Positions 27,283-39,879 of a stretch of 44,804 nt of DNA are shown here, in pieces; position 1 is the first letter of the stretch; the number at the start of each line of letters is the position of its first letter. The notes below the pieces were generated by a model, which saw only the letters and a program-made list of their open reading frames with translations, had not been told where the DNA came from and did not search any database. The position numbers were made by a program, and so were the translations under genes. The DNA comes from Escherichia phage JLBYU60: the sequence record NC_073052.1, one strand, 5' to 3'.

Positions 27283-27989
27283 TTTAAATTTTCCTCGTTA
27301 ACCGCTATCGCGAAGCCGCGCGGAGTGAGTGAGCGGATTAATTTTGTACGAGCGGATTTACCACCGAGGCGACTATACTGTTTCGAGTACCCTTTTTCAA
27401 CGAAAACAGGTTTCTTCTCTGGCATACGGAAGCCGTTGCCGGTCCATAAGCAAGTCAGCTTCGGATATGAATCGCGGGCGTTGATGTATTCCGGGAAGAG
27501 CGGGTGTACGTCATCCTCCGGCAGATACCCCCCATACTCCCACGGGTCGAACGAGTGATCCGGCTTGCGCCACTGGGTGGAAAGCACACTGCGCGGATTC
27601 TCAATCATATATGGCACTTCGAAGAAGTCACCCAGGTAAGCGGCGATCTTCGCGGTGCGCACCGCCTTAAGCTGAAAGGCTGGGTCTTTTGCACGCTTGC
27701 GCGGGAAAGCTGGCGCACCGCTCACCGCCAGATCCGTGCACGGCGGGAACGCATATATGATATCCGGAGTACCGAAATCGCCATTCATCGCACGGTCTAC
27801 AAAGTCCAGATCGATAAACTCATTGCGATACCGGATTCCGCGACCATAAATCCGGTAGTCAAGGTAAGACCCGTGATCGGCTTCGGAGTAGTTGAAGCAA
27901 TAACACTTATGCCCCATCTCGGCCGCACGCTCAATCATCAAGCCGCTGCCGTCAAACAGTGACCAGATTGTCATTTTAGCAATAGTCAT
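27279..27989 (-). CDS. Compact C5-methyltransferase-like protein (putative DNA cytosine-5 modification enzyme)
   Basis: 236 aa; motif I-like SLFDGSG, motif IV-like DIIYAFPPCTDLAVSGA (catalytic Pro-Cys), motif VI-like YMIENPRS, motif IX-like SLTPRG; no room for a normal target-recognition domain; start ATGA-overlaps the SNF2 helicase stop. Confidence 0.6.
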   Translation of the reverse strand: MTIAKMTIWSLFDGSGLMIERAAEMGHKCYCFNYSEADHGSYLDYRIYGRGIRYRNEFIDLDFVDRAMNGDFGTPDIIYAFPPCTDLAVSGAPAFPRKRAKDPAFQLKAVRTAKIAAYLGDFFEVPYMIENPRSVLSTQWRKPDHSFDPWEYGGYLPEDDVHPLFPEYINARDSYPKLTCLWTGNGFRMPEKKPVFVEKGYSKQYSRLGGKSARTKLIRSLTPRGFAIAVNEENLK

Positions 27990-29446
27990 TTGCGCGCCTT
28001 TTTAGCTTTCATGTATTCCATCAAGTCGTCCTGGATATCTCGCTTACTGTCGCGACGCTCGGCGACCAATTCGTCCAGTGTCCCGCGCGCCTGGATAATG
28101 TAGACGAATACCGGTCGAGGGTGTCCGGCCTGCATCTGGCGAACCGGCCCGATACGTTCAACGATCTGCGAAAAGTGCTCAAAGTTCCAGGTGTCGGAGA
28201 AGATTGCCAGGTGATGACCGCCGTCCTGCAAGTTAAGGCCGTGGCCCGCCGATGCCGGGTGTGCAAACATGATGGGGATCTCGCCCCTGTTCCACGCTTC
28301 CATATCCTTATTGCCCTGCTTACCTTTACCCAACGCAACGCCGTGCGGAAATTTCTTCTTAAGACGTGCCAGGTCATGCTTATACTGATACGCAACGAGC
28401 AACGGCGCGCCGTTCAACTCCTCCACGATACTTTCCAGTGCGTCCAGCTTCGCGTCGTGAATCTTCACCCATTCGTCGGTGCGCTCGCCGTCTTCGTCGA
28501 CCTTATACACGGCCCCGGAAGCAAGCTGAAGGCACTTAATAGTCTTCGAAGCAGCGTTCGCCGCCTCCACCGTTCCGCTTTCCAGTTCGGCAAATAGCTC
28601 CGCTTCGAATTGGTCATAAATCTTGCGGGCTTTTTTCGGCAGGTCCACAACAACCGGCGTATAGATTGGCTTGTCACACCCGAAGTATTCAGCCGCATCA
28701 ACGGTTAGCGACACGTCGGACAGTCGTTGTTGTATTTCTTTCTCGGAGTTCTTAAGCGGGGCGTGCTGCATCGTGAAGCTGCCAGGCTTAACCGGCTTGC
28801 TAATAAACCAGCGGTCTGTGAATGCCTTATAACTACTGCCGAGGCGTTCGCCACCGTCGACAAACCACGTCTGACCCCACAGGTCTTTCAGTCCGTTTGG
28901 TGCGGGTGTGCCAGTCAGGTTAATCCAGCGCTTGACGTGCTTATGTGCGATCGCTGCCAGCGCACGGGCGCGCTTACTTCCCTGCTTGCTTCTATAGCCT
29001 TTCAGCTTAGTGGATTCATCGGCAACCACGACCGTAAAGGGCCACTCGTCGCCGCAATACTCAACAAGCCACTCAACTACATCATAGTTAATACAAACCA
29101 CGTTAGCGTCGCTCTCAAGCGCAGCGATGCGGTCCTTCTCTGGCCCAGTGCCGTCTACTACCAGCAAGGCTGGGAAGCGCCATTTCTCCTGTTCCGGGGG
29201 CCATGTACCGGACGCAACGCGCAGCGGGGCCAGCACCAGTACGCGGTCATCCTGGTTGGACAGGATGCCAGTCTGGAACATTTTATTCAGCGCCCACATG
29301 GTCGCGCCGGTTTTACCCGACCCCATTGTCGCCCAAATATTGCAGCGCTTATGCTCGAGGATGAACGCGGTTATCAACTTCTGATATTCGCGGCGTCGGA
29401 ATCGTGCCATTTCTTTATTCCGCCTTTTTCCAGACTTCGGTTTCAC
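27986..29446 (-). CDS. SNF2-family ATP-dependent helicase
   Basis: Walker A MGSGKTG, DExx box VVADESTKL, SNF2 signature LTGTPAPNG, C-terminal helicase motifs (FAHPASAGHGLNLQDG...); start either GTG 29446 (RBS AAGGAA) or ATG 29410. Confidence 0.8.
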   Translation of the reverse strand: MKPKSGKRRNKEMARFRRREYQKLITAFILEHKRCNIWATMGSGKTGATMWALNKMFQTGILSNQDDRVLVLAPLRVASGTWPPEQEKWRFPALLVVDGTGPEKDRIAALESDANVVCINYDVVEWLVEYCGDEWPFTVVVADESTKLKGYRSKQGSKRARALAAIAHKHVKRWINLTGTPAPNGLKDLWGQTWFVDGGERLGSSYKAFTDRWFISKPVKPGSFTMQHAPLKNSEKEIQQRLSDVSLTVDAAEYFGCDKPIYTPVVVDLPKKARKIYDQFEAELFAELESGTVEAANAASKTIKCLQLASGAVYKVDEDGERTDEWVKIHDAKLDALESIVEELNGAPLLVAYQYKHDLARLKKKFPHGVALGKGKQGNKDMEAWNRGEIPIMFAHPASAGHGLNLQDGGHHLAIFSDTWNFEHFSQIVERIGPVRQMQAGHPRPVFVYIIQARGTLDELVAERRDSKRDIQDDLMEYMKAKKARK

Positions 29447-29633
29447 TGTTCCAGTTCCTTTTTGTAGCGTCGTAGTTGGTGGCGTGTCCGATGTGCACCC
29501 CGGTAGCCCGGAAGCTCTTAAATTTTTGCCAGCACACCGTCAACGGCAGCGGATCATTCATGCCCGCGATAAACCATACGCGATCGCCCGGTTTACATTC
29601 GCCCAGCTTGGTGAGTCGGTAATGTTCTTTCAT
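29415..29633 (-). CDS. Hypothetical protein
   Basis: 72 aa from ATG 29633 with RBS GGGAGA preceded by a terminator-like hairpin; no motifs. Confidence 0.45.
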   Translation of the reverse strand: MKEHYRLTKLGECKPGDRVWFIAGMNDPLPLTVCWQKFKSFRATGVHIGHATNYDATKRNWNSETEVWKKAE

Positions 29634-29645
29634 CGTCATGTCTCC

Positions 29646-29670
29646 CAAAAATGGCGGGACAAGCCCGCCG
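29646..29670 (-). terminator. Terminator-like hairpin on minus strand
   Basis: Minus strand reads GGCGGGC-ttgt-CCCGCC then ATTTTT, immediately followed by RBS GGGAGA and ATG of the 29415-29633 gene. Confidence 0.5.
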
Positions 29671-29676
29671 TATTAA

Positions 29677-29850
29677 TTATTTTTGTTCTGCACGGTAGCG
29701 GCGCTGCCGTTCGCGCTCTTTCTTATTGCGGCACGATTTGCACTCGGCCCTATACCCGTCTGGACTGCGCGCAGTCTTACCGGTGTATTTGTGGAACTGG
29801 GATAGCGGCTTTACACAGCCGCAATTACTGCAGCGTTTCTCTTCAATCAT
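29677..29850 (-). CDS. Small zinc-ribbon protein
   Basis: 57 aa from ATG 29850 with RBS GAGGA; CSNCGCVKPL...ECKSCRNKK matches the repeated N-terminal zinc-ribbon modules of the HNH endonuclease at 30166-30768. Confidence 0.45.
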   Translation of the reverse strand: MIEEKRCSNCGCVKPLSQFHKYTGKTARSPDGYRAECKSCRNKKERERQRRYRAEQK

Positions 29851-29890
29851 TTCTAAAATCCTCGTTAGTGCTAACCTGCTCACTATACTG

Positions 29891-30169
29891 TTAAGCGACC
29901 AAATCAGCAACCAATAAATCGCAGTCGACTATGTTGTCAATAACGCGAACGTTAGCACCGCGGCGGGCCATCCGCTCATGTTCGCGTACCTGGTGCGGCT
30001 TCGGTTTTCCACCGGGGCGCTTCACTTCGACGAACACTATTTTGCCGTTGATGATGATAATCAGGTCGGGCGCACCTGCGCGCCCCTCCCATGCCAGTTT
30101 TCGGCAGAATCCGCCTACCTCTTTCACCCGTCGCATCAGGTGACTTTGTATCTTGCCTTCTGGTGTCAT
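29891..30169 (-). CDS. VRR-NUC domain nuclease
   Basis: 92 aa from ATG 30169 with RBS AAGGA; core GAPDLIIIINGKIVFVEVKRPGGKPKPHQ typical of VRR-NUC (PD-(D/E)xK) proteins; start ATGA-overlaps HNH gene stop. Confidence 0.65.
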   Translation of the reverse strand: MTPEGKIQSHLMRRVKEVGGFCRKLAWEGRAGAPDLIIIINGKIVFVEVKRPGGKPKPHQVREHERMARRGANVRVIDNIVDCDLLVADLVA

Positions 30170-30768
30170 TGTCGGCTTTTCCTTACGGCAGCGATGGCAG
30201 GTCCGATAAACTTCTTCATTTCGTCCGGGGTAAACCGATCCCCGCGGGCTATGTTGCACTCTACGCAGCACGGCACGCAGTTATCTTTCGTATGGCCTAC
30301 TGCGTTGTCGAGTCGGTCCGCGCCATTGTCGCCGGTGAATCCGCAGTATGCGCACGGCTGAGAAGTAAGGCGCAGCACGTCCTCTGTAGTAAGGTCGGTG
30401 TTTAGCCCCTTCCTTTCGTCTGCCTTACGGTACTGAAAGAGTTTATAGTAAGCGCGGATCTCTGGTGTCCGGTGGTTGTACTCGCGGCGTGACTTATTAG
30501 CGCACGATCGGCATTCTTTACGAATATGTGACCCGTTTGCTTGGCTTCCTGGCCGGAAGTTTTCCGGCGTGAGCGGCTTGCGCTCACCGCACGTACGACA
30601 TGTTACGATCTCCCCGGTGTACTCTCGCCATACTTCTCTCGGCGGCGCGCCTCTTTCCTTATCCCGTCTCTCTTTCTTATATGCCGCCATGCATTTGGCG
30701 CACCACGACTGGCCCTTGTTGAAAGCGGACTCATCTTTACCCGTATTACAACGCCCACAATGTTTCAT
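30166..30768 (-). CDS. HNH endonuclease with N-terminal zinc-ribbon repeats
   Basis: 200 aa from ATG 30768 with RBS GAGGTG; C-terminal HNH core CAYCGFTGDNGADRLDNAVGHTKDNCVPCCVECN; two CxxC...CxxC modules at the N-terminus. Confidence 0.7.
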   Translation of the reverse strand: MKHCGRCNTGKDESAFNKGQSWCAKCMAAYKKERRDKERGAPPREVWREYTGEIVTCRTCGERKPLTPENFRPGSQANGSHIRKECRSCANKSRREYNHRTPEIRAYYKLFQYRKADERKGLNTDLTTEDVLRLTSQPCAYCGFTGDNGADRLDNAVGHTKDNCVPCCVECNIARGDRFTPDEMKKFIGPAIAAVRKSRQ

Positions 30769-30816
30769 ATACACCTCGAAAAAGAAAACGCCAGACAATA
30801 ATGCCCAACGTTTCCG

Positions 30817-33108
30817 CTACTTGCGGTAGCGATACATGCAATCGCCCTCTGCGGCGAGTGGGAAGCCTTTCGCCCAAATAGGTAGGTCGCACATCAGCGC
30901 GCAAAGCTCCTCGGTCGTGTAGTCGTCAGTGTCCGGCACTTCTGTGATCAATTCGTCGTGTACGGACAGGACGATCTCATACCCCGCGGCTTCAACGCCA
31001 GGCATGGACCATGCGAGAATATCGCGGCACAACGCCTGTACGATGTTCTCCGTCAGTTTGCCGCCGTAGGTGTACTGGAAACCCCACTGGCGCGTAGTCT
31101 GATTCTCGCCCTGGTATTTGATGCGGGTGCTGGTGCGCTTCTTGCCGGTGTCTTCGTCGATCTCGGTCGTGACAGATAGCGCGATGCCGGGATAGCTCAT
31201 GATGCGCCCTGAAGGCAACTCAATTTTAAGCCACCACCCCGCGGCGTTCGGGTCGTCGCGCTCCTCGTCAAAGGTTGGGTCGTGCTTCGCCTTCGTACGG
31301 ACAATCTTGAGCGCTTTTCTACCGTCCGGGCGAACGTTCGCACCCGCCCAGTATGCTTTGCCCGGATTGCGGATTGCACACAACACCGCGTCCTCAAGCT
31401 CGGCCCAAAAGGCTACCGTCATCGGGTGAGACTCACGCCACATACGTTTGATCGCGTCACACGTCAACCACACGTTTTTTGGCAGTATGTAAGTTGGGCG
31501 CTCGTCTTTCTTGCCAGGCTTCGGCGGGCGCTTGGCTTCGTTAATGCGGGCATACTCATAACCACGTTTCGCCGCGGCCCAAATATGATCGGGGAATGTG
31601 CCCTTCATGACGTCCGCCATCGCATACAGGTCGAGGCCCAGGTTTTTAGCAAACTGCAGGAACGCTGCAACACCGCCACCATAGCCCAACCCCAATTCGC
31701 ACGCCTTACCAATCTGGCGCAAGTCTTTGCGGTTGGCTTTGATGTATTCCGGGTCGAGGCCAAACATCTTACCGGCAGTCTCACAATAGATATCACGATC
31801 GGCCTTAAACACCATTAGCGCGGTTTTCTCGCCAGCGATCCAGGCAAGCCCGCGACCTTCCACGTTAGAAAAGTCAGCTACAACAAACTTCTTGCCCTTA
31901 GCCGGAATAATGCACCCGCGAACGGTCGAGGCCGTTAACTTCGATATGTCATACGCCCAGTGTGCAGTCCCGCGTAACAGGGAGTTGATGCCGTTGGTGA
32001 GCATGTGCGACCGCACCCAATAAGAAACGTCGCTCTCGCCATCACGGCGTTTAATCTTCCCTTCATGGTCGTCGCTGTACTCGCCACGCGCCAGGTTTTG
32101 AGGTTGAAAGCCTTTACCGGCCCAGCGTAGCGTGCGCTTTGCCCCACCATACTGAAGACAACCACGGCGGCGACCATCTGCGGATAAGCCGTTAACTAGC
32201 GGATTGTACTTAGTCGATGCCGTTGATGACGCACCGAGGCGCATTTCGATAAGCGCTTTGCCTTCGTCGGGGAAGTCCGGGTCTTCAAGCAGGTCATTCA
32301 GCGTGGATTTCTGCGCGTTGTGGATTGTGAACGCTGGCGCAATATCACGCAGGATTGGCAGGAAGTCATTGCCGGTCAGCTTACCGCCAAATCGCTCCCA
32401 GGCTTCCTCCTTCAATTCTTCCTTATGCGCCTGCACCGCTTTGATCGCGGCGTTCGCCAGGTCAACGTCCACATAGAAGCCGCGGTCGTTGATCAACTGG
32501 TCAATAAGCAGTATCTCGTCTTCCTTCGGAGTATTACCCCAGTCCGGTATGCGCCAGTAGACCTCACGCATCGCGATAATATCCAGCGCGGCATATCGCA
32601 GAAATTTGGCCCATTCTTCAGGGTGAGTCTCGCGCGTGTAGCGGCGTATTTTGTAGGTCTTAGGGGTAGGCTTACAGAATCGTTTGATCAGCGCCTTGCC
32701 TGCCTTATCCTTCGCGTGCTCTGCGTCAACGCCCAACACCTGACACTGCATATCGAGGCTACCCGGCAGCGCGTGGCGAAAGGCCATAATCATTGTGTCT
32801 TCGATCTGGCTTACCGGCAGGTCAATACCCCACTTCTCGCGGATAACCAGGCGGTCAAACAGGAGGCCGTTAGCCATCACTATTTTTGCTTTCTTGCGGG
32901 AAACATGGCGGAGCGCCTTGCGCAGTTCACGCGGCATTGTGGGGGATTCAGTGCAATCCCATGTCTGCACGCGGCCCTCGTCGATGGCGTATGTGCAAAT
33001 CATAATCTCGGTGGTTGGGTGCTCTGCGTAGGCGTACGCCCCAACCTTCTTTAGGTCCACCCCGCTAAATGTCTCGGTGTCGAGAAACAGACGTTCGAAG
33101 TCTTTCAT
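30817..33108 (-). CDS. DNA polymerase, family A, with 3'-5' proofreading exonuclease domain
   Basis: 763 aa; Exo I-like LFLDTETFSG; Pol A motif A DFSNVEGRGLAWIAGE, motif B RQIGKACELGLGYGGG, motif C VLSVHDELI. Confidence 0.9.
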   Translation of the reverse strand: MKDFERLFLDTETFSGVDLKKVGAYAYAEHPTTEIMICTYAIDEGRVQTWDCTESPTMPRELRKALRHVSRKKAKIVMANGLLFDRLVIREKWGIDLPVSQIEDTMIMAFRHALPGSLDMQCQVLGVDAEHAKDKAGKALIKRFCKPTPKTYKIRRYTRETHPEEWAKFLRYAALDIIAMREVYWRIPDWGNTPKEDEILLIDQLINDRGFYVDVDLANAAIKAVQAHKEELKEEAWERFGGKLTGNDFLPILRDIAPAFTIHNAQKSTLNDLLEDPDFPDEGKALIEMRLGASSTASTKYNPLVNGLSADGRRRGCLQYGGAKRTLRWAGKGFQPQNLARGEYSDDHEGKIKRRDGESDVSYWVRSHMLTNGINSLLRGTAHWAYDISKLTASTVRGCIIPAKGKKFVVADFSNVEGRGLAWIAGEKTALMVFKADRDIYCETAGKMFGLDPEYIKANRKDLRQIGKACELGLGYGGGVAAFLQFAKNLGLDLYAMADVMKGTFPDHIWAAAKRGYEYARINEAKRPPKPGKKDERPTYILPKNVWLTCDAIKRMWRESHPMTVAFWAELEDAVLCAIRNPGKAYWAGANVRPDGRKALKIVRTKAKHDPTFDEERDDPNAAGWWLKIELPSGRIMSYPGIALSVTTEIDEDTGKKRTSTRIKYQGENQTTRQWGFQYTYGGKLTENIVQALCRDILAWSMPGVEAAGYEIVLSVHDELITEVPDTDDYTTEELCALMCDLPIWAKGFPLAAEGDCMYRYRK

Positions 33109-33275
33109 TGCTTTATCCTCACTACGGCGTCAGCGCTGCCGATCATGGAGAAGATGCCGTCTGACAGGGCAATCTCTTCGCCGTTGTTGCGAATCTCGGC
33201 AACTGTGAAATATTCCCCCAGTAGCTTAGACCATACCCGCATTCCGACTTTTACTTCGCTGGCTTTAATACGCAT
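33105..33275 (-). CDS. Small hypothetical protein translationally coupled to DNA polymerase
   Basis: 56-aa ORF (MRIKASEVKVGMRVWSKLLGEYFTV...) not in the six-frame track; its TGA overlaps the polymerase ATG (ATGA). Confidence 0.4.
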   Translation of the reverse strand: MRIKASEVKVGMRVWSKLLGEYFTVAEIRNNGEEIALSDGIFSMIGSADAVVRIKQ

Positions 33276-33333
33276 TTTTCATTGTCCTATTAAAAAGCCC
33301 GCATTAAGCGGGCTTGAATAGTGGGCTTTGCCC

Positions 33334-34113
33334 TTAACGGCGGCGACGTTTACGTGGCGCTTCGTCTTCGTCGTCGTCCTCATCTTCGTCATCGCGTGGC
33401 TTACGCCGTTTGCGAGGTTTTTCATCTTCCTCATCGTCGTCGTCATCGCGGCGCTTGGATTTCTTGGACTTGCGCGGCTTGTCATCTTCATCATCGTCAT
33501 CACGACGTTTTGACTTTTTGGACTTGCGCGGTGCTTCGTCTTCGTCGTTGTCCAGGTCTTCATCGGAGCAAGACGACCCGCCACCTCCGAAGGCTTCGCC
33601 GTCTTCACGGAATCGCAGACCCAGCAAGCCAGCCCCGAGACCCTTGCCGTTGGTATTGTTCCACGCCCAAATATCCAGGGACACATTGCAATAACAACCG
33701 GAGTAGATCTCCTGGCCTTCGATCTCGTCGCCTTCTACGGTCAGACCTTGTTCCGTCTGCTTCTCGCCAAGTGACGTTTGAATGATCGGCTGTTTGAACG
33801 ATTTGGCGTTGATGTACAACATGCCTTCGAATTCTTCGGTTACTTCGTCGCGCTCGTCACCGTCGCGAACTGCGCATTCCTTAGAATCCTGGGCGTAGTG
33901 GCGGTCCATCCACTTATCGGCATTCTTCTCGGATTTCAGCTTATCGGTGAGCACTGCGCGCGCTGCCGCTTCCACTTTGTCCACCTGCGGATCTTCTTTA
34001 TCCAGAAGAATAACGGCACGGTATGCCGGTTTTTGACCATCCTGTTTAGGGGTATCACGTTCCCAAATTTTAAGGAAGCATACGCGCACATTTTTCAGGT
34101 TGACTTTAGCCAT
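33334..34113 (-). CDS. Putative ssDNA-binding protein (DUF2815/gp2.5-like) with charged C-terminal repeats
   Basis: 259 aa from ATG 34113 (MAKVNLKNVRV) with RBS GAGGAA; adjacent to a DUF2800-like exonuclease; C-terminus has tandem K/R-rich and D/E-rich blocks (DEAPRKSKKSKRRDDDDEDDKPRKSKKSKRRDDDDDEED...). Confidence 0.45.
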   Translation of the reverse strand: MAKVNLKNVRVCFLKIWERDTPKQDGQKPAYRAVILLDKEDPQVDKVEAAARAVLTDKLKSEKNADKWMDRHYAQDSKECAVRDGDERDEVTEEFEGMLYINAKSFKQPIIQTSLGEKQTEQGLTVEGDEIEGQEIYSGCYCNVSLDIWAWNNTNGKGLGAGLLGLRFREDGEAFGGGGSSCSDEDLDNDEDEAPRKSKKSKRRDDDDEDDKPRKSKKSKRRDDDDDEEDEKPRKRRKPRDDEDEDDDEDEAPRKRRRR

Positions 34114-34203
34114 TTTCCAATTCCTCATTTTCACATGTATCGGGGTTATTGGAGGCCACCCCGTTCGGCTTGGTTGCCAATTTACTTGGTTGCGCTTAAG
34201 CGG

Positions 34204-34446
34204 TCAAGCATTTTCATTAAAAAGATTTCTGGTCACGTAGTTGGTAGCGTTCTCGATCCAGCTTAACGGCGGGCGGTCGATGTTCTTCTCCACCCAATCG
34301 ACGGCAACTTCGCTATAGCCGTCATCCAGCCAGCGGGTCGGATGGCGAATCATCCACGCCACCATTAACACGCCTTGCACGCAATGCAGGATAAAGCCCA
34401 GCGCTCCGAGCAAAAACATCAATAAGATTGCGAATACTTTATTCAT
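34204..34446 (-). CDS. Small membrane protein
   Basis: 80 aa with two predicted TM helices (FAILLMFLLGALGFILHCV; VLMVAWMI); stop overlaps region of TTGGTTGC motifs. Confidence 0.5.
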   Translation of the reverse strand: MNKVFAILLMFLLGALGFILHCVQGVLMVAWMIRHPTRWLDDGYSEVAVDWVEKNIDRPPLSWIENATNYVTRNLFNENA

Positions 34447-35869
34447 TGCTTAAGTCCTCGTCAGTAGCTTCCGACCACGCAGGGCGCGGGTCGTCGATTG
34501 GTGCTAACACCGGTTTGGCTGGTGCGCGCGTGATTTTATCACACAGCTTCGCCCACACTTTCGGTTTTTCGTCCTTCAGTACCTTCTCGGCATCCGTAGG
34601 GCTGAGCAATGTTTCTTTGTACATCACATCGCGCTTGATCCGGGCCTTCGTGAAGATTTCAATAACTTCGCTCTCGTCCGCCCACTTACGGATCCCTTCC
34701 TTACCGGCAACCATCTTGAGGCCCAGCGATTCGCCATCGCCCGCCATTACCGCTTTGAATACCGCGGACTCGATAGCTTTGATGTGCTGGCGCATTGCGT
34801 CCAGGCCTTCATAAGCCTTGCGCAGTTCCGCAGCGCTCATAGCGCCTGGGGCCGCTTCTTTCTTGCCACGCTTCGCACGTCGTGCCGCTTTGCGGGCTTC
34901 GCGGGCCATATTGCGGTCGTGATTGGCGCATTCTTCCTCTGTCGCAATACTTACGTCGTCGCCCAGGTCTTCGTCTGTTGCCGTTGGTGGGGTCATCGTG
35001 TCGATTGCAGCCTTAGCGCGGGCGCTACACTGATCCGCAAATCTGCACCACTGACACGCATCAACGCTCGGTCGGAAGTCGGCACGGGTGAGTCCCTTTT
35101 TGCCGCGGGCGTACGCTTCCAGGGCGGCGATAGCACGCTTTGACGCAAACTTAGCGAATATCTCCAGGGCTTCTACCGAAATATCCCACTCCGACGCCCC
35201 GCCGCAATACGGCTGGAAGATAACCAGGCGCACGGTCGTGATGTCGTACATGGATTGCAGCTTGCGCAGCAGGCCGAGCGCGTACAACATAAGCTGTTTG
35301 TTTTCTTTCGCCTCGACCTTATGCCGCCCGGTCTTCAGGTCGCCAACAATCAGCATGTACGTGCCGTCGGTCTTCTTCATGACCATGACCATATCCGCAG
35401 TGCCGAACGTCTTAACCCGGTTGCCGTCGATCTCGAAGCCAGAGTGTAGGACGCGGGTGAGATCGGCGCGCATCTCAAGCTGAACAAACTCCGCCACTTC
35501 GAGGAGCGGTCGCCAGTGGTCGATGTACGCGTCGCACTGTTTCACCATGTCGTCGTTGACCAGTACGCCGCCTTTCGGTGCTTTCGGGTGGGCCTTTACC
35601 GGCCCCTTACCTTCGTTCTCGACGTAACACCCTTTGTACGTCTTAGCGGTTATCAGCTTCTCACCGGCGATAATACGGTTGAGCACGACTTCAGATACGG
35701 TGTGCATACTCGTACCGTTAATCGCCGCTTGCCCGGATTCGTTCGGGATACCCTGTTCTACCACCAGGGCGGCGGGGCAACCCATCCATTTTTTAGCACC
35801 GGATGGCCCGAGTAATGAATGTTCCGTATTACTACCGGATTGTGTTTTGCGCTTCGGTTTAATCGCCAT
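34439..35869 (-). CDS. Cas4/RecB-like PD-(D/E)xK exonuclease (DUF2800-like) with C-terminal extension
   Basis: 476 aa with RBS AAGGGTGG; N-terminal LLGPSGAKKWMGCPAAL, nuclease core IVGDLKTG, Cys cluster CQWCRFADQC; extra ~150-aa charged C-terminal region. Confidence 0.6.
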   Translation of the reverse strand: MAIKPKRKTQSGSNTEHSLLGPSGAKKWMGCPAALVVEQGIPNESGQAAINGTSMHTVSEVVLNRIIAGEKLITAKTYKGCYVENEGKGPVKAHPKAPKGGVLVNDDMVKQCDAYIDHWRPLLEVAEFVQLEMRADLTRVLHSGFEIDGNRVKTFGTADMVMVMKKTDGTYMLIVGDLKTGRHKVEAKENKQLMLYALGLLRKLQSMYDITTVRLVIFQPYCGGASEWDISVEALEIFAKFASKRAIAALEAYARGKKGLTRADFRPSVDACQWCRFADQCSARAKAAIDTMTPPTATDEDLGDDVSIATEEECANHDRNMAREARKAARRAKRGKKEAAPGAMSAAELRKAYEGLDAMRQHIKAIESAVFKAVMAGDGESLGLKMVAGKEGIRKWADESEVIEIFTKARIKRDVMYKETLLSPTDAEKVLKDEKPKVWAKLCDKITRAPAKPVLAPIDDPRPAWSEATDEDLSNE

Positions 35870-36057
35870 TATTCCACCCTTGAAAATTGAGCAATGTAAT
35901 AATCGTGTTCAACATTGGCCCGCTTCGCGGCATTGTTCATGGTAGCCGCCAGTCCTCGAGCTTGCATCCAGCAGCAATTCCAGTTTTGATTCATAACGAT
36001 TTCTGGTTGCTCGTCGCCGGTAATACGGCAACGAAATAAAACAAAGAATATAGCCAT
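35869..36057 (-). CDS. Small hypothetical protein
   Basis: 62-aa ORF with ATG 36057 abutting the upstream gene stop; end overlaps exonuclease start by 1 nt; no motifs. Confidence 0.35.
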   Translation of the reverse strand: MAIFFVLFRCRITGDEQPEIVMNQNWNCCWMQARGLAATMNNAAKRANVEHDYYIAQFSRVE

Positions 36058-36309
36058 TTATTTTGTCTCCCAGCGGTCAATTGTTTTTGCTTCGGATGCA
36101 ACTGCGAAGCGAACATATTCCAGATTGGAATCAGCCCAAATATAAAAGTCTGGATTAATAAAGGTGGTGCGCTTAATTTGCGCGGGAGTATTGCGGCGTT
36201 TATCTATTACGGCAACGCGTGACTGAAAGTTGCCGATGCGTTCGAATAGCCAATAATAAGGGCGTTGGTCGCGTGAATCCACCGCCTCGATTAGCGTGAA
36301 GCGTGCCAT
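36058..36309 (-). CDS. Hypothetical protein
   Basis: 83 aa with RBS GAGGA; preceded by a terminator-like hairpin. Confidence 0.5.
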   Translation of the reverse strand: MARFTLIEAVDSRDQRPYYWLFERIGNFQSRVAVIDKRRNTPAQIKRTTFINPDFYIWADSNLEYVRFAVASEAKTIDRWETK

Positions 36310-36321
36310 TGTCTCGTCCTC

Positions 36322-36350
36322 TAAAAAGAGGCCCGCAGATTAGCAGGCCG
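36322..36350 (-). terminator. Terminator-like hairpin on minus strand
   Basis: Minus strand reads GGCCTGC-taatct-GCGGGCC (one mismatch) then TCTTTTT; downstream of stop at 36358. Confidence 0.45.
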
Positions 36351-36357
36351 GAATACA

Positions 36358-36873
36358 TTAATCTTCCAGTTCGAAATAGGTTTCGACGATTTCTTTTAGC
36401 TCTGTGTGGAAGTCTTCGACGTCGTCATCTTCCAGCTTGGCGATTGATTTGATCTCGAACGATTCCAGCAGGTCGTCGAATTCGTCGTTCGCATCGTCGT
36501 CGTCACCACCGGCAATAATCGCGGCATACTGTTTGATCTCGTCGCGCATCTCTGCCAGCGGATCGGCATCTTTCTTGCCTTTGCCTTTTGCCGGTGCTTT
36601 TTTAGACTTAGCCGGTTTTTCATCTTCGGCATCGTCGTCGTCATCTTCTACGACTTCTTTTTTGGCCTTACCCTTCGCCGGTGCTTTTTTAGCTTTAGCC
36701 GGTTTTTCGTCTTCGGCGTCATCGTCGCCATCTTCGACAACTTCTTTTTTGGCCTTAGACGGCTTCTTGTCTTCCTGCTTACCAACGGCAGCGCCAACGG
36801 TTTCATAATGCTTTGCAATGGTCTCCAGTGCTACTACGCCGCGAGTGATCAGGTTTACGATTTGCTCAAACAT
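36358..36873 (-). CDS. Hypothetical protein with tandem lysine-rich/acidic repeats
   Basis: 171 aa from ATG 36873 (MFEQIVNL) with RBS GGAGATA; central duplicated ~31-aa unit (KPAKAKKAPAKGKAKKEVVEDDDDDAEDE) and acidic C-terminus; the six-frame ORF extension to 37053 lacks a credible start. Confidence 0.55.
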   Translation of the reverse strand: MFEQIVNLITRGVVALETIAKHYETVGAAVGKQEDKKPSKAKKEVVEDGDDDAEDEKPAKAKKAPAKGKAKKEVVEDDDDDAEDEKPAKSKKAPAKGKGKKDADPLAEMRDEIKQYAAIIAGGDDDDANDEFDDLLESFEIKSIAKLEDDDVEDFHTELKEIVETYFELED

Positions 36874-37110
36874 GGTATATCTCCGATTGGTTAAGTTTAG
36901 GTGTCGGCAGTTAACTTCGTCGGTGGCCTTAACATATTGCCAGGTTACGCGTTCTCCCGTTCGGGTAGTGGACCTGGTTATATAATCACGGTTGGGAATC
37001 CTGACACTTCGATCCGGCCCCTGCGGTGCCCCTCTCCAGTTTGCGTCCTGCATCCTGTCGACGGAGTGAATGATAGATTGGTTGCAGGATGGGTGTCAAC
37101 AACTAATTTC

Positions 37111-37143
37111 AAAAAAAAGCGCCGAAGCAAAATGCGACGGCGC
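37111..37143 (-). terminator. Terminator-like hairpin on minus strand in large intergenic region
   Basis: Minus strand GCGCCG...CGGCGC stem (large loop) followed by TTTTTTTT. Confidence 0.4.
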
Positions 37144-37214
37144 TAACCAATAAGAGACAATGAGACGGAAAGTATTATTACACGCGTGCGCGCCCGTTTC
37201 AATATCCAAAGGAT

Positions 37215-37243
37215 TTGACACCCTGCGGTTTTAGGTGTAGTTT
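37215..37243 (+). promoter_or_regulatory. Putative sigma70-like promoter for HTH regulator gene
   Basis: -35 TTGACA (37215-37220), 17-bp spacer, -10 TAGTTT (37238-37243); followed by inverted repeat TTGGTcattaaCCAAC overlapping the RBS region. Confidence 0.4.
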
Positions 37244-37274
37244 CATTGGTCATTAACCAACAGGAGACTGAATT

Positions 37275-37604
37275 ATGAATATCAAAGAAGCAATTGAAGT
37301 GTTATCTAATGCTATCCGCGGCGAGGCGGGTAAATCCTGGTATTACACAAATGCGGTGGATACTCTGTTATTTGAAGTGTCCAGGTTATCGCGTGCTGAG
37401 AAGGAGCTTACCGCCAAACTGGAATTACTGAATGGAACGGCAGCAAGCAAGCTGCAAAAACACAATGAAGAAATGGAAGAATACAAAAAGCAGGTTATCC
37501 GTTTGCGCGCCGAGGGCAAATCTTGGGCGATGATTGCCGAGTTGACCGGAATTAATCAGAGCACAGTGCGCTCCTGGGTACGCAATAATAAAACTTCTAA
37601 GTAA
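37275..37604 (+). CDS. HTH DNA-binding protein (putative early transcriptional regulator)
   Basis: 109 aa with RBS AGGAGA; C-terminal HTH-like segment SWAMIAELTGINQSTVRSWVRNN; first + strand gene after a 400-bp divergent intergenic region with sigma70-like promoter. Confidence 0.6.
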   Translation: MNIKEAIEVLSNAIRGEAGKSWYYTNAVDTLLFEVSRLSRAEKELTAKLELLNGTAASKLQKHNEEMEEYKKQVIRLRAEGKSWAMIAELTGINQSTVRSWVRNNKTSK

Positions 37605-37614
37605 GGCCACGGCA

Positions 37615-39879
37615 ATGAGCTTGATTAAATTCGCTGTAACAAAACCCGCTAAAAAAGGCGAAAAAGCCAGGGCGGAAAACTTCCAGATGACGACCGATGA
37701 GTTTTTCGAATTTATCAAAGATGCGAAAGAAATCTCCTCGGTGCATATCAACAAGACGGAAGATAAAGCCGAGTATGCGCGCCGCAAGCGTAAGGCCGAT
37801 GGCATCGTGGCGTATACCAGTGACGGATTGCGTCGTAAGACCAGTGCGGTGGACCGTTCGATCCTGTTCTTTGATATTGACCGCACCGACACCCGCACCC
37901 TGCGCCGCTGCCGCAAGGCGTTCATCGACGCGGGTCTGGAACACGTATTTCACACCACAACCGGCGACCGCCACCCGCTGAAAGGAGGCACGCGTTGCGC
38001 TCGTTTCCTGGTGCTCACCGATAAGCCTGTACCTGCTGAAGACCTGGGCCGCGTCCAGTATGCACTATTACACCAACTGGGCCTGTCAGATGTGGACTTC
38101 GATGATTGCACGAAAGACACAAACCGCCTTATGTACCTGCCTCACCAGCAATCGGTTGTTAAGTGTCACTACGGCAAACGTGCCCGCGTCCGTCGTCTGC
38201 TGCGCCTGGCGGATAAGCTGGGAGTGGAAAAAGAGGAAGTACGCCGCGAACTAACCCAGGGCGATGACGGCGTGGCGGACGGCATTCTGGATTGGTGCTT
38301 CCAGGCCGGATTCGAACCGCTGTCGTCCGGTCGTGGTTATGAAGTGCCATGCCCGAACGAACATCTGCATAGTGGCGAAGGGTCCACCGCTATCATGGTT
38401 AAGGATGGCGAGATCCGTTTCAAGTGTATGCACACCGGCAACGAGTGCTGTTCCGAACTGAACAGACACCAGCACCTGGCGCTACGTCTTATCGGGATCC
38501 CGGACCACCTGAACGTCGAACCGCACAACATGTCACGTAAGCAAATCGCCGCCATCCTTCCGGGACTGGACGACGAGGAGGTCGAATCGTGCTATGAACA
38601 TATCGTTGATGCGGTCGGTGACGGCGACGAGTACGGCGGATGTACGGACGCAGACCTGGACAACGAGCCGGTTGCACTGTTCAGTAAGCACGACCCGATC
38701 ATAGAAGGTCTGATTAACTTCAAATCGACCTGGTATATGGCTGGCGAGTCGAACATCGGTAAATCGTTCTACGTGCTGGGCCAAATGGGTGCGGTTGCCG
38801 CGGGGATTCCGTTCGGCGGCGCGAAGGTCGTCCAGTCCCATTGCTTCTATTTCGACGCGGAAGGTGGCGAAGCCTCTAACCAGCGCAAAGAAGCATTGCA
38901 GATTAAATATGAGCACGACCTGGACAAGCTGCACATTATCGATCTGCAATCACGCGGCTGGGATATCACCAGCAAATCCGGCTTGCGTGAAGTTATCAGC
39001 TTCATCAACCGCACCGCTAACGGCGAACCGGTTGGCCTGGTGGCGTTCGACTCACTCAACCAGACTGTTGCGTTGCGGTCCGCGGATGCTAAACCGTTCG
39101 ACGAGAACAACGCCAGCGATATGGGTGAAGTGGTCAAAGCGCTGAAGGCCATCGCGGAAAATACAGGTGGCAGTGCGGGCGTCATCCACCACCCGGCGAA
39201 GGGTGCAAACGGCAGCAGAACCCCCCGCGGGTCCGGCGCGCTGCATGGCGCTGTCGATTCTGCGTTCTTCCTGGAACAGCCGGACGACAACCAGCCAGGC
39301 CAATTGAACCTGTATCACGAAAAGGCACGTAACGGCATCAAGCAAGCGCCGCGTGGCTTCGTCCTGCTCAAGTGCAAGGTGAAGGTGGATCTCCGCAAGT
39401 CAGAAGCGTTCGAAGCCCACCAGTCCACCAGCACCGGGCCGGACTTCGGCGATGTGGTCGCCGGTTGGGACGTCAAGCCGATCGCATCAACGCCACGCGA
39501 CGAGACTCTTTACCTCGTACCGGTCGCCCTGGCACCGTTCGCCATTGAGCAGGCAAAGGCCGCTGGCAAGGCCGCAGTTAAGGAAGAGAACGCCGCAGGA
39601 CCGCGCAACGAAAAAGAGAAAGTGCTTTATGCAGCGCTGGAAAAACTGATGGAAGATAACCCGGACCATACCGGATTCAGCAAATCGGCAATTGTCCGCC
39701 AGGCTGGGCTTGCGAAAGGTGGCACATCGACGAAGGCAATCGACGATATGGTCGAGCGCGGCGTACTCGGTTTTTACACAGATCCGCACACCGGGGCCAT
39801 CTATGGGTCGTCGAATATCGTCATCAAAACGAATATACCCATCACGCTTTCGGCGACCGATGATGATTTAAAAGATTAA
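37615..39879 (+). CDS. Primase-helicase (replication initiation protein with RecA-like AAA_25-type ATPase domain)
   Basis: 754 aa; N-terminal region with LFFDIDRTD acidic motif and Cys/His zinc-binding segment CPNEHLHSGEG...FKCMHTGNEC; central Walker A GESNIGKS and Walker B-like LVAFDSLNQ. Confidence 0.7.
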   Translation: MSLIKFAVTKPAKKGEKARAENFQMTTDEFFEFIKDAKEISSVHINKTEDKAEYARRKRKADGIVAYTSDGLRRKTSAVDRSILFFDIDRTDTRTLRRCRKAFIDAGLEHVFHTTTGDRHPLKGGTRCARFLVLTDKPVPAEDLGRVQYALLHQLGLSDVDFDDCTKDTNRLMYLPHQQSVVKCHYGKRARVRRLLRLADKLGVEKEEVRRELTQGDDGVADGILDWCFQAGFEPLSSGRGYEVPCPNEHLHSGEGSTAIMVKDGEIRFKCMHTGNECCSELNRHQHLALRLIGIPDHLNVEPHNMSRKQIAAILPGLDDEEVESCYEHIVDAVGDGDEYGGCTDADLDNEPVALFSKHDPIIEGLINFKSTWYMAGESNIGKSFYVLGQMGAVAAGIPFGGAKVVQSHCFYFDAEGGEASNQRKEALQIKYEHDLDKLHIIDLQSRGWDITSKSGLREVISFINRTANGEPVGLVAFDSLNQTVALRSADAKPFDENNASDMGEVVKALKAIAENTGGSAGVIHHPAKGANGSRTPRGSGALHGAVDSAFFLEQPDDNQPGQLNLYHEKARNGIKQAPRGFVLLKCKVKVDLRKSEAFEAHQSTSTGPDFGDVVAGWDVKPIASTPRDETLYLVPVALAPFAIEQAKAAGKAAVKEENAAGPRNEKEKVLYAALEKLMEDNPDHTGFSKSAIVRQAGLAKGGTSTKAIDDMVERGVLGFYTDPHTGAIYGSSNIVIKTNIPITLSATDDDLKD

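What the first reader, a model, noticed from the sequence alone, without database searches (positions are those of the whole stretch)
33334..35869. Cas4/RecB-like exonuclease plus SSB-like protein pair next to the polymerase (phage recombination/replication module)
A DUF2800-like PD-(D/E)xK exonuclease with a Cys cluster and a ~150-aa C-terminal extension is followed by a small membrane protein and an SSB-like gene, all co-directional with the polymerase. The known co-occurrence of this exonuclease family with DUF2815-type SSBs and Pol A in phages supports a recombination-dependent replication module; the C-terminal extension and the interposed membrane protein are atypical.
Basis: partly seen in the sequence, partly recalled or inferred. 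Interest (0 to 1): 0.4.

Follow-up and report, generated by a model that had tools for sequence, protein, structure and literature searches.

The report
Known phage nuclease–SSB–polymerase replication module
This is the ordinary, already described nuclease plus single-strand-DNA-binding-protein pair that sits beside the DNA polymerase in many phages, here in an E. coli Dhillonvirus whose nuclease has a 99%-identical relative already shown by experiment to cut DNA.

Summary
On the minus strand lie a 476-aa DUF2800 PD-(D/E)xK nuclease (34439-35869), an 80-aa single-pass membrane ORF (34204-34446) and a DUF2815/Enc34-type SSB (33334-34113; the true start is ATG 34113, not GTG 34134). A 56-aa ORF and PolA follow.

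The window is a Dhillonvirus genome; 147 public phage records share this stretch at mostly 90-99% identity, some annotated as exonuclease and Gp2.5-like SSB. The literature already names a "duf2800-gp2.5-polA module".

The nuclease is 470/476 identical to Bas14_0045 ("B14T"). A July 2026 preprint showed that protein to be a D177/K179-dependent DNase that triggers a type IX retron.

- **C-terminal "extension":** not atypical. It is the canonical last third of DUF2800 (model positions 250-368). Only a ~50-aa charged linker is extra.
- **80-aa ORF:** this one is genuinely lineage-specific.

Two things are added here:
- The nuclease's C-terminus copies the motif that opens its own SSB's tail, and the two co-vary across phage lineages. 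The motif [ST]D[DE]DL occurs only four times in the window, all in the nuclease, SSB and primase-helicase.
- The SSB tail is a variable-copy, alternating acidic/basic repeat.

Verdict: already known, low interest.

The parts
34439..35869 (-). DUF2800 PD-(D/E)xK nuclease gene (476 aa), orthologue of Bas14_0045 / B14T
   Evidence: Pfam DUF2800 2.1e-66 covering model 1-368/368, and PDDEXK_1. phrog_69. 470/476 identical to Bas14_0045. Foldseek hits to Cas4-family ACE1, AdnAB, Cas4 SSO0001, AddAB, MGME1 and RecE.
34994..35821 (-). Nuclease core, aa 17-292. Catalytic D159, D177, K179 and Q192/Y196; four-Cys cluster C31, C272, C275, C281.
   Evidence: The first 296 aa match DUF2800 positions 1-243 and PDDEXK_1. 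These residues are invariant in alignments A1 and A2. AF2 pLDDT is 80-94. D177A/K179A inactivates the orthologue, and the purified active fragment was aa 18-295.
34841..34993 (-). Charged, low-confidence linker, aa 293-343. It holds the first TDEDL motif (aa 298-302, motif core 34964-34975).
   Evidence: pLDDT <50 for 276-316 and 333-346. Absent or variable in close relatives and missing in 388-396-aa homologues. Motif position.
34496..34840 (-). Conserved C-terminal alpha/beta domain of DUF2800, aa 344-458
   Evidence: Alone it matches DUF2800 positions 250-368, E 1.9e-19. AF2 mean pLDDT 79. Matches the C-termini of other DUF2800 proteins in BFVD (TMq 0.62-0.72). No PDB match.
34442..34495 (-). 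[quoted passage not shown]
   Evidence: D460, R462, D470, D472 and L473 are conserved. This is the best match to the cognate SSB tail among all ORF C-termini in 13 of 21 lineages.
34204..34446 (-). 80-aa single-pass membrane ORF, Dhillonvirus-specific, probably translationally coupled to the nuclease gene (8-nt overlap)
   Evidence: phrog_11211 5e-53. Hydropathy. Found only in Dhillonvirus records. 5 hits in 1.84 billion representatives, sharing an AW-x-x-RHP-[ST]-R motif. Same position in the divergent phage 'rolling'.
34179..34207 (-). Weak sigma-70-like promoter match in the 90-nt spacer upstream of the SSB gene
   Evidence: TTGACC-17-TAAATT, 9 of 12. A consensus match only, and no more frequent than in shuffles.
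33334..34113 (-). Enc34/T7 gp2.5-type SSB gene (259 aa from ATG 34113). OB fold aa 1-~180; tail aa 183-259.
   Evidence: PF10991 3e-31. phrog_112 'Gp2.5-like ssDNA binding and annealing protein' 7e-57. PDB 4klk, 4jg2 and 5odj. W149 aligns with the base-stacking W150 of Enc34 ORF6.
33337..33567 (-). SSB tail: SDEDL motif, then four acidic-block/basic-block units, ending PRKRRRR (77 aa, 35 D/E, 28 K/R)
   Evidence: Composition. 54-bp tandem repeat. Unit copy number varies between isolates (218-261 aa). The same architecture occurs across the subfamily.
33290..33315 (-). Intrinsic terminator after the SSB gene
   Evidence: Hairpin plus U-run, -24.6 kcal/mol, z -4.7. Annotated as a terminator in phage PTXU06.
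33105..33275 (-). 56-aa ORF of unknown function, overlapping the PolA start by 4 nt
   Evidence: phrog_10102 3e-42. Annotated in relatives.
30817..33108 (-). Family A DNA polymerase (763 aa)
   Evidence: PF00476 and phrog_17 3.9e-129.
37615..39879 (+). Primase-helicase (754 aa), divergently transcribed. Its C-terminus ...SATDDDLKD carries the same motif (39859-39870).
   Evidence: phrog_3228 E 0 and AAA_25. Motif position.

Best explanation
This is the DNA-end-processing and ssDNA-handling part of the replication module of an E. coli Dhillonvirus.

Shown:
- The 476-aa protein is a DUF2800 member of the RecB/Cas4-like PD-(D/E)xK nucleases, with a four-cysteine cluster.
- Its 99%-identical orthologue B14T cuts DNA in a D177/K179-dependent way.
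- The 259-aa protein is an Enc34/T7 gp2.5-type OB-fold protein, and is the only SSB-type gene I saw in the ORFs scanned, 27986-39879.

Inferred:
- The nuclease trims or resects DNA ends and ss/ds junctions.
- The SSB coats the exposed strand and helps it anneal.
- PolA, together with the primase-helicase, extends the resulting 3' ends.
- The outcome would be repair of broken phage genomes and production of the concatemers needed for packaging. This resembles T7 (gp6, gp2.5, gp5, gp4) and lambda Red.

Also inferred: the proteins are coupled through a short acidic-leucine peptide, [ST]-D-[DE]-D-L. It sits at the nuclease C-terminus, in the nuclease linker, at the start of the SSB tail and at the primase-helicase C-terminus. 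It would dock them onto a common partner. By analogy with T7 gp5 the most likely partner is PolA. The SSB DNA-binding cleft is the alternative.

The 80-aa membrane ORF is a genus-specific insertion of unknown role.
For: - **Family assignment:**
- **Catalytic residues and Cys cluster:** invariant.
- **Experimental nuclease activity of the orthologue:** bioRxiv 10.64898/2026.07.14.737667; identity 470/476.
- **Module conservation:** PMC8093625. Three unrelated phage genera show the order nuclease -> SSB -> PolA. 170 of 172 DUF2800 loci carry a same-strand DUF2815 gene.
- **Surrounding genes fit a T7-like replication and recombination set:** VRR-NUC, EndoVII-like nuclease, SNF2 helicase and primase-helicase; DNA ligase in the relative McMelon.
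- **ssDNA binding in the family:** shown for the Enc34 ORF6 homologue (PMC5686142).
- **Weak oligo-recombineering activity of a DUF2815 protein:** PMC5743808.
- **Shared motif within the window:** [ST]D[DE]DL occurs only 4 times in all six frames, all in these three proteins.
- **Shared motif across lineages:** the nuclease C-terminus is the best match to the cognate SSB tail in 13 of 21 lineages, against 0.9 expected (P 1.4e-13). Cognate pairs score above non-cognate pairs (24.6 vs 19.6, permutation p 2e-5).
- **T7 precedent for acidic tails docking on the polymerase:** gp4 (PMC12593628) and gp2.5 (PMC5686142).
Against: - No experiment addresses the role of either protein in the phage life cycle. 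The preprint itself says the function of B14T in infection is unknown.
- Escaper phages with missense or truncating mutations in the nuclease gene still plate. Replication therefore does not strictly depend on it under laboratory conditions.
- The activity shown in vitro is endonucleolytic cutting at the base of a stem-loop, not processive 5'-3' resection.
- Annealing activity is unproven for this SSB. The one DUF2815 protein tested gave the lowest recombineering frequency of the set.
- The second stacking aromatic of Enc34 (Y156) aligns with Asn here.
- The motif-sharing statistics rest on related sequences. With coarse 40% clusters only 3 of 6 rank first (P 0.001).
- No binding partner was tested.
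Confidence: 0.75

Rival explanations
1. The two genes are neighbours but do not act as a recombination pair. The SSB is simply the replicative SSB of the phage. The nuclease has a separate job, such as degrading host or competitor DNA, processing genome ends, or countering host defence.
For: - No other SSB gene was seen in the ORFs scanned, 27986-39879, and the literature notes that ssb genes are absent near gp2.5-type genes. A replicative role is therefore needed in any case.
- The nuclease is dispensable for plaque formation.
- Its demonstrated activity is structure-specific endonucleolytic cutting.
- The SSB gene is followed by its own terminator and preceded by a weak promoter match in the spacer, which hints at separate expression.
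Against: - The nuclease -> SSB -> PolA order is kept from Staphylococcus to Xanthomonas phages.
- The nuclease tail copies, and co-varies with, the cognate SSB tail. That is hard to explain without functional coupling.
- The closest structural relatives are end-resection nucleases (AdnAB, AddAB, RecE, lambda Exo).
Confidence: 0.2
2. The nuclease is a true Cas4 that manipulates CRISPR spacer acquisition, as proposed for Cas4-like genes of some Campylobacter phages (that comparison is recalled from memory).
For: It has the four-Cys pattern C...CX2CX5C, and its best Foldseek hits include the Cas4-family proteins ACE1 and SSO0001.
Against: - No match to the Pfam Cas4 model at E <= 0.01; only DUF2800 and PDDEXK_1.
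- The AdnA and AddB nuclease domains match about as well.
- The gene lies in a replication operon of a virulent coliphage, with no CRISPR or Cas1/Cas2 context.
- It has a DUF2800-specific C-terminal domain that Cas4 lacks.
Confidence: 0.03
3. The shared [ST]D[DE]DL and acidic-aromatic tails are only a by-product of acidic low-complexity composition and common descent, not a docking signal.
For: - All the tails are acidic, so baseline similarity is high (non-cognate mean score 19.6).
- The lineages are related. In 8 of 21 lineages the nuclease is not the top match.
Against: - The strict motif is absent from every other frame and protein of the 44.8-kb window.
- Rank-1 enrichment is 13 against 0.9 expected.
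- The hydrophobic residue switches in step in both proteins: Leu in enterobacterial phages, Phe in Staphylococcus phages. Whole-tail patterns also match, for example ...SEFTAIADTAEDLV with ...DEFQAISEGAAAEGLV.
Confidence: 0.35

Closest known systems
B14T = Bas14_0045 of Escherichia phage TheodorHerzl (Bas14), trigger of type IX retron Sen3 (bioRxiv 10.64898/2026.07.14.737667)
   Same: 470/476 identical residues. Same gene position, with the same 80-aa ORF and SSB downstream. The DUF2800 domain and the D177/K179 active site are shared.
   Different: Nothing material at sequence level. The preprint calls the region after aa 295 disordered. Here aa 344-458 is a conserved, confidently folded family domain.
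The duf2800-gp2.5-polA module of phages (PMC8093625; DUF2800 classed as RecB-like in PMC3424549)
   Same: Same three families in the same order and orientation.
   Different: Dhillonvirus has two small ORFs inserted: 80 aa between nuclease and SSB, and 56 aa between SSB and PolA. It also has a terminator after the SSB gene.
Enterobacter phage Enc34 ORF6 SSB and T7 gp2.5 (T7-type SSBs; PDB 5odj/5odl)
   Same: OB-fold family PF10991. The stacking Trp is conserved. An unstructured C-terminal tail follows the fold.
   Different: Those tails are short and purely acidic. Here the tail is 77 aa of alternating acidic and basic blocks in 4 units and ends in PRKRRRR. The acidic-hydrophobic motif sits at the start of the tail, not at the end.
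T7 replisome and recombination set (gp6 exonuclease, gp2.5, gp5, gp4)
   Same: A family A polymerase, a gp2.5-type SSB, a fused primase-helicase and a 5'-end nuclease. In T7 the acidic tails of gp4 and gp2.5 contact the polymerase (PMC12593628 for gp4; PMC5686142 for gp2.5).
   Different: The nuclease belongs to an unrelated fold family (PD-(D/E)xK with Cys cluster, not FEN-like gp6; that contrast is from my own knowledge). Tail sharing extends to the nuclease. Nothing has been tested biochemically.
Lambda Red (Exo/Beta) and RecET two-component recombinases
   Same: A nuclease plus an ssDNA-annealing or ssDNA-binding partner, encoded side by side. Lambda Exo and RecE are distant structural matches.
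   Different: The partner is an OB-fold SSB rather than a Rad52-like annealase. The nuclease has an iron-staple-type Cys cluster and an extra C-terminal domain.
Cas4 / AddB / AdnA nuclease domains
   Same: Fold, PD-(D/E)xK motifs and the C...CX2CX5C cysteines.
   Different: No Cas4 HMM match and no CRISPR or helicase context. It is a stand-alone phage protein with a DUF2800-specific C-terminal domain.

Membership tests
Pfam PF10926 DUF2800 | HMM score above the gathering threshold over the full model | tested here: met
   225.1 bits against cut-off 21; model 1-368/368 over aa 17-463. The two halves match separately, positions 1-243 and 250-368.
Pfam PF10926 DUF2800 | PD-(D/E)xK catalytic residues present | tested here: met
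   D159, D177, K179, Q192 and Y196 are invariant in A1 and A2. D177A/K179A inactivates the 99%-identical orthologue.
Pfam PF10926 DUF2800 | Four-cysteine cluster (one N-terminal Cys plus CX2CX5C) | tested here: met
   C31, C272, C275 and C281 are invariant. Whether they bind an Fe-S cluster cannot be tested with these tools.
Pfam PF10926 DUF2800 | Family C-terminal domain after the nuclease core | tested here: met
   1175 of 1423 phage records cover at least 80% of the query. BFVD matches to the C-termini of other DUF2800 proteins.
duf2800-gp2.5-polA module | Nuclease, DUF2815 SSB and PolA adjacent and co-directional | tested here: met
   Two small extra ORFs are interposed.
Cas4 sensu stricto | Match to the Cas4 sequence model | tested here: not met
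   Only DUF2800 and PDDEXK_1 were reported at E <= 0.01.
Cas4 sensu stricto | CRISPR-Cas (cas1/cas2) genomic context | tested here: not met
   It sits in the replication operon of a virulent coliphage.
Cas4 / RecB-like nuclease fold | Structural similarity of the core | tested here: met
   Foldseek: 9iac 4.3e-07, 6ppu 1.2e-06, 4ic1 6e-05, 3u4q 2.8e-04. PDDEXK_1 36.8 bits against cut-off 22.
Pfam PF10991 Enc34_ssDNA-bd (DUF2815), T7-type SSB | HMM score above the gathering threshold | tested here: met
   108.9 bits against cut-off 26. Sequence matches to 4klk, 4jg2 and 5odj.
Pfam PF10991 Enc34_ssDNA-bd (DUF2815), T7-type SSB | Aromatic residues that stack on ssDNA bases | tested here: inconclusive
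   The Enc34 W150 equivalent is conserved (W149). The Y156 equivalent is Asn, with a nearby W151.
Pfam PF10991 Enc34_ssDNA-bd (DUF2815), T7-type SSB | Short acidic C-terminal tail ending in a hydrophobic or aromatic residue | tested here: not met
   The tail is 77 aa with 35 D/E and 28 K/R in alternating blocks and ends PRKRRRR. Staphylococcus phage P240 keeps the canonical ...DDEDFL end.
Pfam PF10991 Enc34_ssDNA-bd (DUF2815), T7-type SSB | ssDNA binding and strand annealing | not testable with these tools
   Binding is shown only for Enc34 ORF6. Weak recombineering is shown for a P. putida prophage homologue.

The most novel reading that the evidence does not exclude
DUF2800 nucleases end in a short acidic-hydrophobic peptide that copies the tail motif of the DUF2815 SSB encoded next to them and co-evolves with it. 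In Dhillonvirus and Jerseyvirus the primase-helicase carries the same peptide. Nuclease, SSB and helicase would then take turns on one docking site, probably on PolA. This would be a phage-encoded 'SSB-tail code' that hands DNA ends from resection to synthesis. The block-wise acidic/basic, copy-number-variable SSB tail may add self-association or condensation of the replication machinery.
Probability: 0.45. Interest if true: 0.4.

Novelty: already known. Interest (0 to 1): 0.2.

Why it matters
As submitted, the finding adds nothing new. The genes are annotated in public phage records, the module is named in the literature, and the nuclease's near-identical orthologue has been purified and shown to cut DNA.

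Its practical relevance is that this nuclease is what a type IX retron senses. Dhillonvirus phages carrying it are therefore predicted to be sensitive to that defence.

Three small additions could guide experiments on how this widespread module is wired together:
- The 'disordered' C-terminus is really a conserved family domain followed by an SSB-like tail.
- The tail motif is shared by nuclease, SSB and primase-helicase.
- The SSB tail is an alternating-charge repeat.

Tried and rejected
- **NCBIfam:** no hit for any of the four proteins or for the C-terminal domain.
- **PDB sequence search with the nuclease:** no hit at E <= 1.
- **Foldseek of the C-terminal domain against PDB:** nothing better than E 2.3.
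- **A link between the C-terminal domain and stand-alone 'Siphovirus Gp157' or Gam-like proteins:** suggested only by weak BFVD hits (E 0.8 and 2.6). Pfam and PHROG scans at relaxed thresholds did not support it. Rejected.
- **Rfam on the whole window:** no match.
- **Papers on retron Eco2, retron Eco7, OLD and retron Eco8:** they mention Dhillonvirus or phage SSBs, but none identifies these genes.
- **The search for related loci with single proteins:** returned only close relatives. Only the alignment query gave diversity.
- **The terminator scan:** it missed the hairpin after the SSB gene, probably because its longest stem uses up two U residues (my guess). Folding and a public annotation recovered it.
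- **Opposite-strand ORFs inside the region (for example 33321-33785 on the + strand):** mirror images of the repeat-rich coding strand. Not pursued.
Full report
**What is there**

Between 33334 and 35869 all real genes lie on the minus strand. In order of transcription they are:
- a 476-aa ORF (34439-35869);
- an 80-aa ORF (34204-34446) whose ATG overlaps the upstream stop by 8 nt;
- a 90-nt spacer;
- a 259-aa ORF (33334-34113).

A hairpin terminator, a 56-aa ORF (33105-33275) and a 763-aa family A polymerase (30817-33108) follow. The ORF list starts the 259-aa gene at GTG 34134. ATG 34113 is more likely: it has a GAGGA 8 nt upstream and is the start annotated in phages McMelon and PTXU06.

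Downstream of PolA come an EndoVII/HNH-like gene, a VRR-NUC nuclease and an SNF2 helicase. A primase-helicase is transcribed divergently from 37615.

**Where it comes from**

The stretch 33000-36100 matches 157 phage records. In 147 of them at least 80% of the query is covered, at mostly 90-99% identity. Nearly all are Escherichia phages of the genus Dhillonvirus. The 44.8-kb window length matches those genome records (43.6-45.9 kb). Some of those records already label the genes 'exonuclease' or 'PD-(D/E)XK nuclease family protein', and 'Gp2.5-like ssDNA binding protein and ssDNA annealing protein'.

**The nuclease**

- Sequence family:
  - Pfam gives DUF2800 at 2.1e-66 over the whole model, and PDDEXK_1 at 5.4e-09.
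  - PHROGs gives phrog_69 'exonuclease'.
- Conserved residues:
  - D159, D177, K179, Q192, Y196 and the cysteines C31, C272, C275, C281 (spacing CX2CX5C) are invariant. This holds in 27 relatives and in four homologues down to 27% identity.
- Structure:
  - An AlphaFold2 model has pLDDT 80-94 in the core.
  - Its best PDB matches are the Cas4-family protein ACE1, the AdnAB and AddAB nuclease domains, Cas4 SSO0001, MGME1, Exo5, RecE and lambda Exo.
- Naming:
  - 'Cas4/RecB-like' is therefore a fair description of the fold.
  - The protein does not match the Cas4 sequence model and has no CRISPR context, so I do not file it as a Cas4.

**Direct experimental evidence exists for the orthologue**

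The protein is 470/476 identical to Bas14_0045 of phage TheodorHerzl. A preprint of July 2026 (10.64898/2026.07.14.737667) names that protein B14T and reports the following:
- Escaper phages that evade the type IX retron Sen3 carry missense or truncating mutations in this gene.
- The protein alone triggers retron toxicity, and D177A/K179A abolishes it.
- A purified fragment (aa 18-295) cuts the retron msDNA at the base of its stem-loop.

The authors state that the role of the protein in the phage life cycle is unknown.

**The 'C-terminal extension'**

- The last 139 residues alone match DUF2800 model positions 250-368 (E 1.9e-19). The first 296 residues match positions 1-243.
- In a translated search of 50,697 phage records, 1175 of 1423 matching records cover at least 80% of the protein. 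The alignments run to about residue 471 even in Streptococcus, Staphylococcus, Vibrio and Xylella phages.
- Modelled on its own, the region folds as an alpha/beta domain with mean pLDDT 79.
- It matches the C-termini of other DUF2800 proteins in the viral structure library (TMq 0.62-0.72) and nothing in the PDB.
- The family norm is 388-396 aa. This protein is longer because of a charged, low-confidence linker (aa ~293-343) and three short insertions in the core.

So the region is canonical for the family. It is also a real domain rather than disorder, which refines the preprint's description.

**The SSB**

- Pfam PF10991 (Enc34_ssDNA-bd, the former DUF2815) matches at 3e-31.
- The protein aligns with three solved members, including Enc34 ORF6.
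- The tryptophan that stacks on DNA in Enc34 (W150) is conserved as W149. The second stacking residue (Y156) aligns with Asn.
- I saw no other SSB-type gene among the ORFs scanned, 27986-39879. This agrees with the published remark that gp2.5-type genes lack a neighbouring ssb.
- Evidence for annealing activity in this family is thin. One prophage homologue gave above-background but the lowest oligo recombineering of the set tested.

**The module is known**

PMC8093625 describes a 'duf2800-gp2.5-polA module' in phages of Gram-positive bacteria and says the same context is seen in most phages of Gram-negative bacteria. I confirmed the direct order nuclease -> SSB -> PolA in a Jerseyvirus, a Staphylococcus Triavirus and a Xanthomonas Salvovirus. 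Among 172 loci fetched with DUF2800 queries (a redundant sample of 23 lineages), 170 carry a DUF2815 gene on the same strand.

**What is particular to this lineage**

- The 80-aa ORF is found only in Dhillonvirus records (151 records).
- An exhaustive HMMER search of 1.84 billion representative proteins returns five hits, three of them fragments or variants of the same protein.
- It keeps its position and its 8-nt overlap in the divergent phage 'rolling', where it is 44% identical.
- It has one hydrophobic segment (aa 4-31) followed by a conserved AW-x-x-RHP-[ST]-R motif.
- The other lineages lack it. There the gap between nuclease and SSB is under 150 nt, against about 270-310 nt in Dhillonvirus-like clusters.

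Its function is unknown.

**Expression signals**

A strong hairpin plus U-run follows the SSB stop (-24.6 kcal/mol, z -4.7). It is annotated as a terminator in phage PTXU06. A weak promoter-like match lies in the spacer before the SSB gene, but such matches are no commoner here than in shuffled sequence.

**A shared tail motif (my addition)**

The nuclease ends ...EATDEDLSNE, and it carries ATDEDL again just after the Cys cluster. The SSB tail opens ...SCSDEDLDND. The primase-helicase ends ...SATDDDLKD.

In all six frames of the 44.8-kb window, [ST]D[DE]DL occurs only at these four places.

Across 21 dereplicated lineages the last 20 residues of the nuclease resemble the tail of the SSB encoded beside it:

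| Lineage | Nuclease C-terminus | SSB tail |
|---|---|---|
| Staphylococcus phage P240 | ...AEDDFDKL | ...AEDDFDELDTDDEDFL |
| L081 | ...SEFTAIADTAEDLV | ...DEFQAISEGAAAEGLV |
| L083 | ...DDFDVVAETFDDLA | ...DEFDEVTEGADADDLA |

- Among the C-termini of all ORFs of at least 90 aa in each locus, the nuclease is the best match to the SSB tail in 13 of 21 lineages, where 0.9 is expected (P 1.4e-13).
- With coarse 40% clusters it is 3 of 6 (P 0.001).
- Cognate pairs score higher than non-cognate pairs (24.6 vs 19.6, permutation p 2e-5). Relatedness of the lineages inflates that figure.

[quoted passage not shown] The gp2.5 tail is implicated in contacts with both the polymerase and the primase-helicase (PMC5686142). 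By analogy I infer that this peptide docks nuclease, SSB and primase-helicase on a common partner. This is inference.

**The SSB tail**

- Composition: after the SDEDL motif the tail has four units, each an acidic block followed by a basic block such as PRKSKKSKRR. It ends in PRKRRRR. In total it is 77 aa with 35 D/E and 28 K/R, encoded by a 54-bp tandem repeat.
- Copy number: the number of units differs between near-identical isolates, giving proteins of 218 to 261 aa.
- Wider family: the same alternating-charge architecture runs through nearly all 120 listed homologues. More distant ones have many more units and end in canonical SSB-like tips such as DDEIPF or DDDVA.
- Contrast: this differs from the short acidic tails described for T7 gp2.5, Enc34 ORF6 and the Staphylococcus phage protein.
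- Published description: none turned up in the papers my DUF2800/DUF2815 searches returned.

**How it most likely works**

Shown: the family memberships, the conserved active site, DNA cutting by the orthologue, and ssDNA binding by a homologue.

Inferred:
- The nuclease processes DNA ends or ss/ds junctions.
- The SSB covers and helps pair the exposed strands.
- PolA and the primase-helicase extend them.
- This gives repair and concatemer formation, with the acidic-Leu peptide coordinating the hand-offs.

Against a strict dependence: phages with truncated nuclease are viable, and the activity seen in vitro is endonucleolytic. The main rival is that the SSB is simply the replicative SSB and the nuclease has an unrelated task. 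The conserved linkage and the co-varying tails argue against that.

**Verdict**

The finding is already known and of low interest (0.2). The tail-mimicry and alternating-charge tail observations are the only leads that might repay experiments.

Noticed in passing
window 33337-33567 (- strand): The SSB tail is a variable-number repeat of acidic block plus basic block: 4 units here, fewer in the shorter isolates (218-245 aa). It ends in PRKRRRR rather than an acidic-aromatic tip. The same architecture, with many more units, runs through the DUF2815 subfamily.
   Followed up: partly
window 39859-39870 (+ strand), end of the primase-helicase gene 37615-39879: The primase-helicase ends ...SATDDDLKD, the same [ST]D[DE]DL motif as the nuclease and the SSB. 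The Jerseyvirus K53 helicase ends ...KATEGDLE. The ~680-aa primases of other lineages lack the motif.
   Followed up: partly
window 33279-33686 (- strand, alternative frame); proteins P0125 and P0128: Two database versions of the SSB, one from a GenBank phage record, read the tail in another frame (MTKMKHRARLRSPNVV...). That sequence equals the alternative-frame ORF here. A frameshift or sequencing error in the repeat is likely.
   Followed up: no
window 36358-37053 (- strand): A phrog_3127 protein of unknown function carries 2.2 copies of an 87-bp repeat encoding charged blocks (KKEVVEDDDDDAEDEKPAKSKKAPAKGKGKK). The real start is probably M61. Annotated lengths vary from 143 to 229 aa among relatives. 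It is a second alternating-charge repeat protein in the same early region.
   Followed up: no
window 30166-30798 (- strand): A 210-aa EndoVII/HNH-like ORF (phrog_1035, 2.3e-43) lies between PolA and the VRR-NUC gene. Phage McMelon has only a 63-aa ORF there. It looks like a mobile endonuclease insertion. The VRR-NUC ORF probably starts at 30169, overlapping this ORF's stop.
   Followed up: partly
window 33105-33275 (- strand): A 56-aa ORF (phrog_10102) overlaps the PolA start by 4 nt. It is annotated in the Dhillonviruses checked and absent from the Jerseyvirus, Triavirus and Salvovirus loci. Function unknown.
   Followed up: no
window 33290-33315 (- strand): The strong intrinsic terminator after the SSB gene was missed by the consensus scan. 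Folding predicts it (-24.6 kcal/mol, z -4.7), and it is annotated in phage PTXU06.
   Followed up: yes
window 37054-37274: A divergent intergenic region between the leftward and rightward early operons. The surrounding 2-kb stretch has the lowest G+C in the window (0.488), and the GC skew changes sign here. Two good sigma-70-like matches lie on the minus strand (37099-37070, 11 of 12; 37202-37174, 10 of 12).
   Followed up: no
literature: PMC12640716: Escape of a Dhillonvirus (phage98) from Retron-Eco7 maps to an unnamed gene of unknown function. Whether it is the DUF2800 nuclease was not stated in the text I could read.
   Followed up: no
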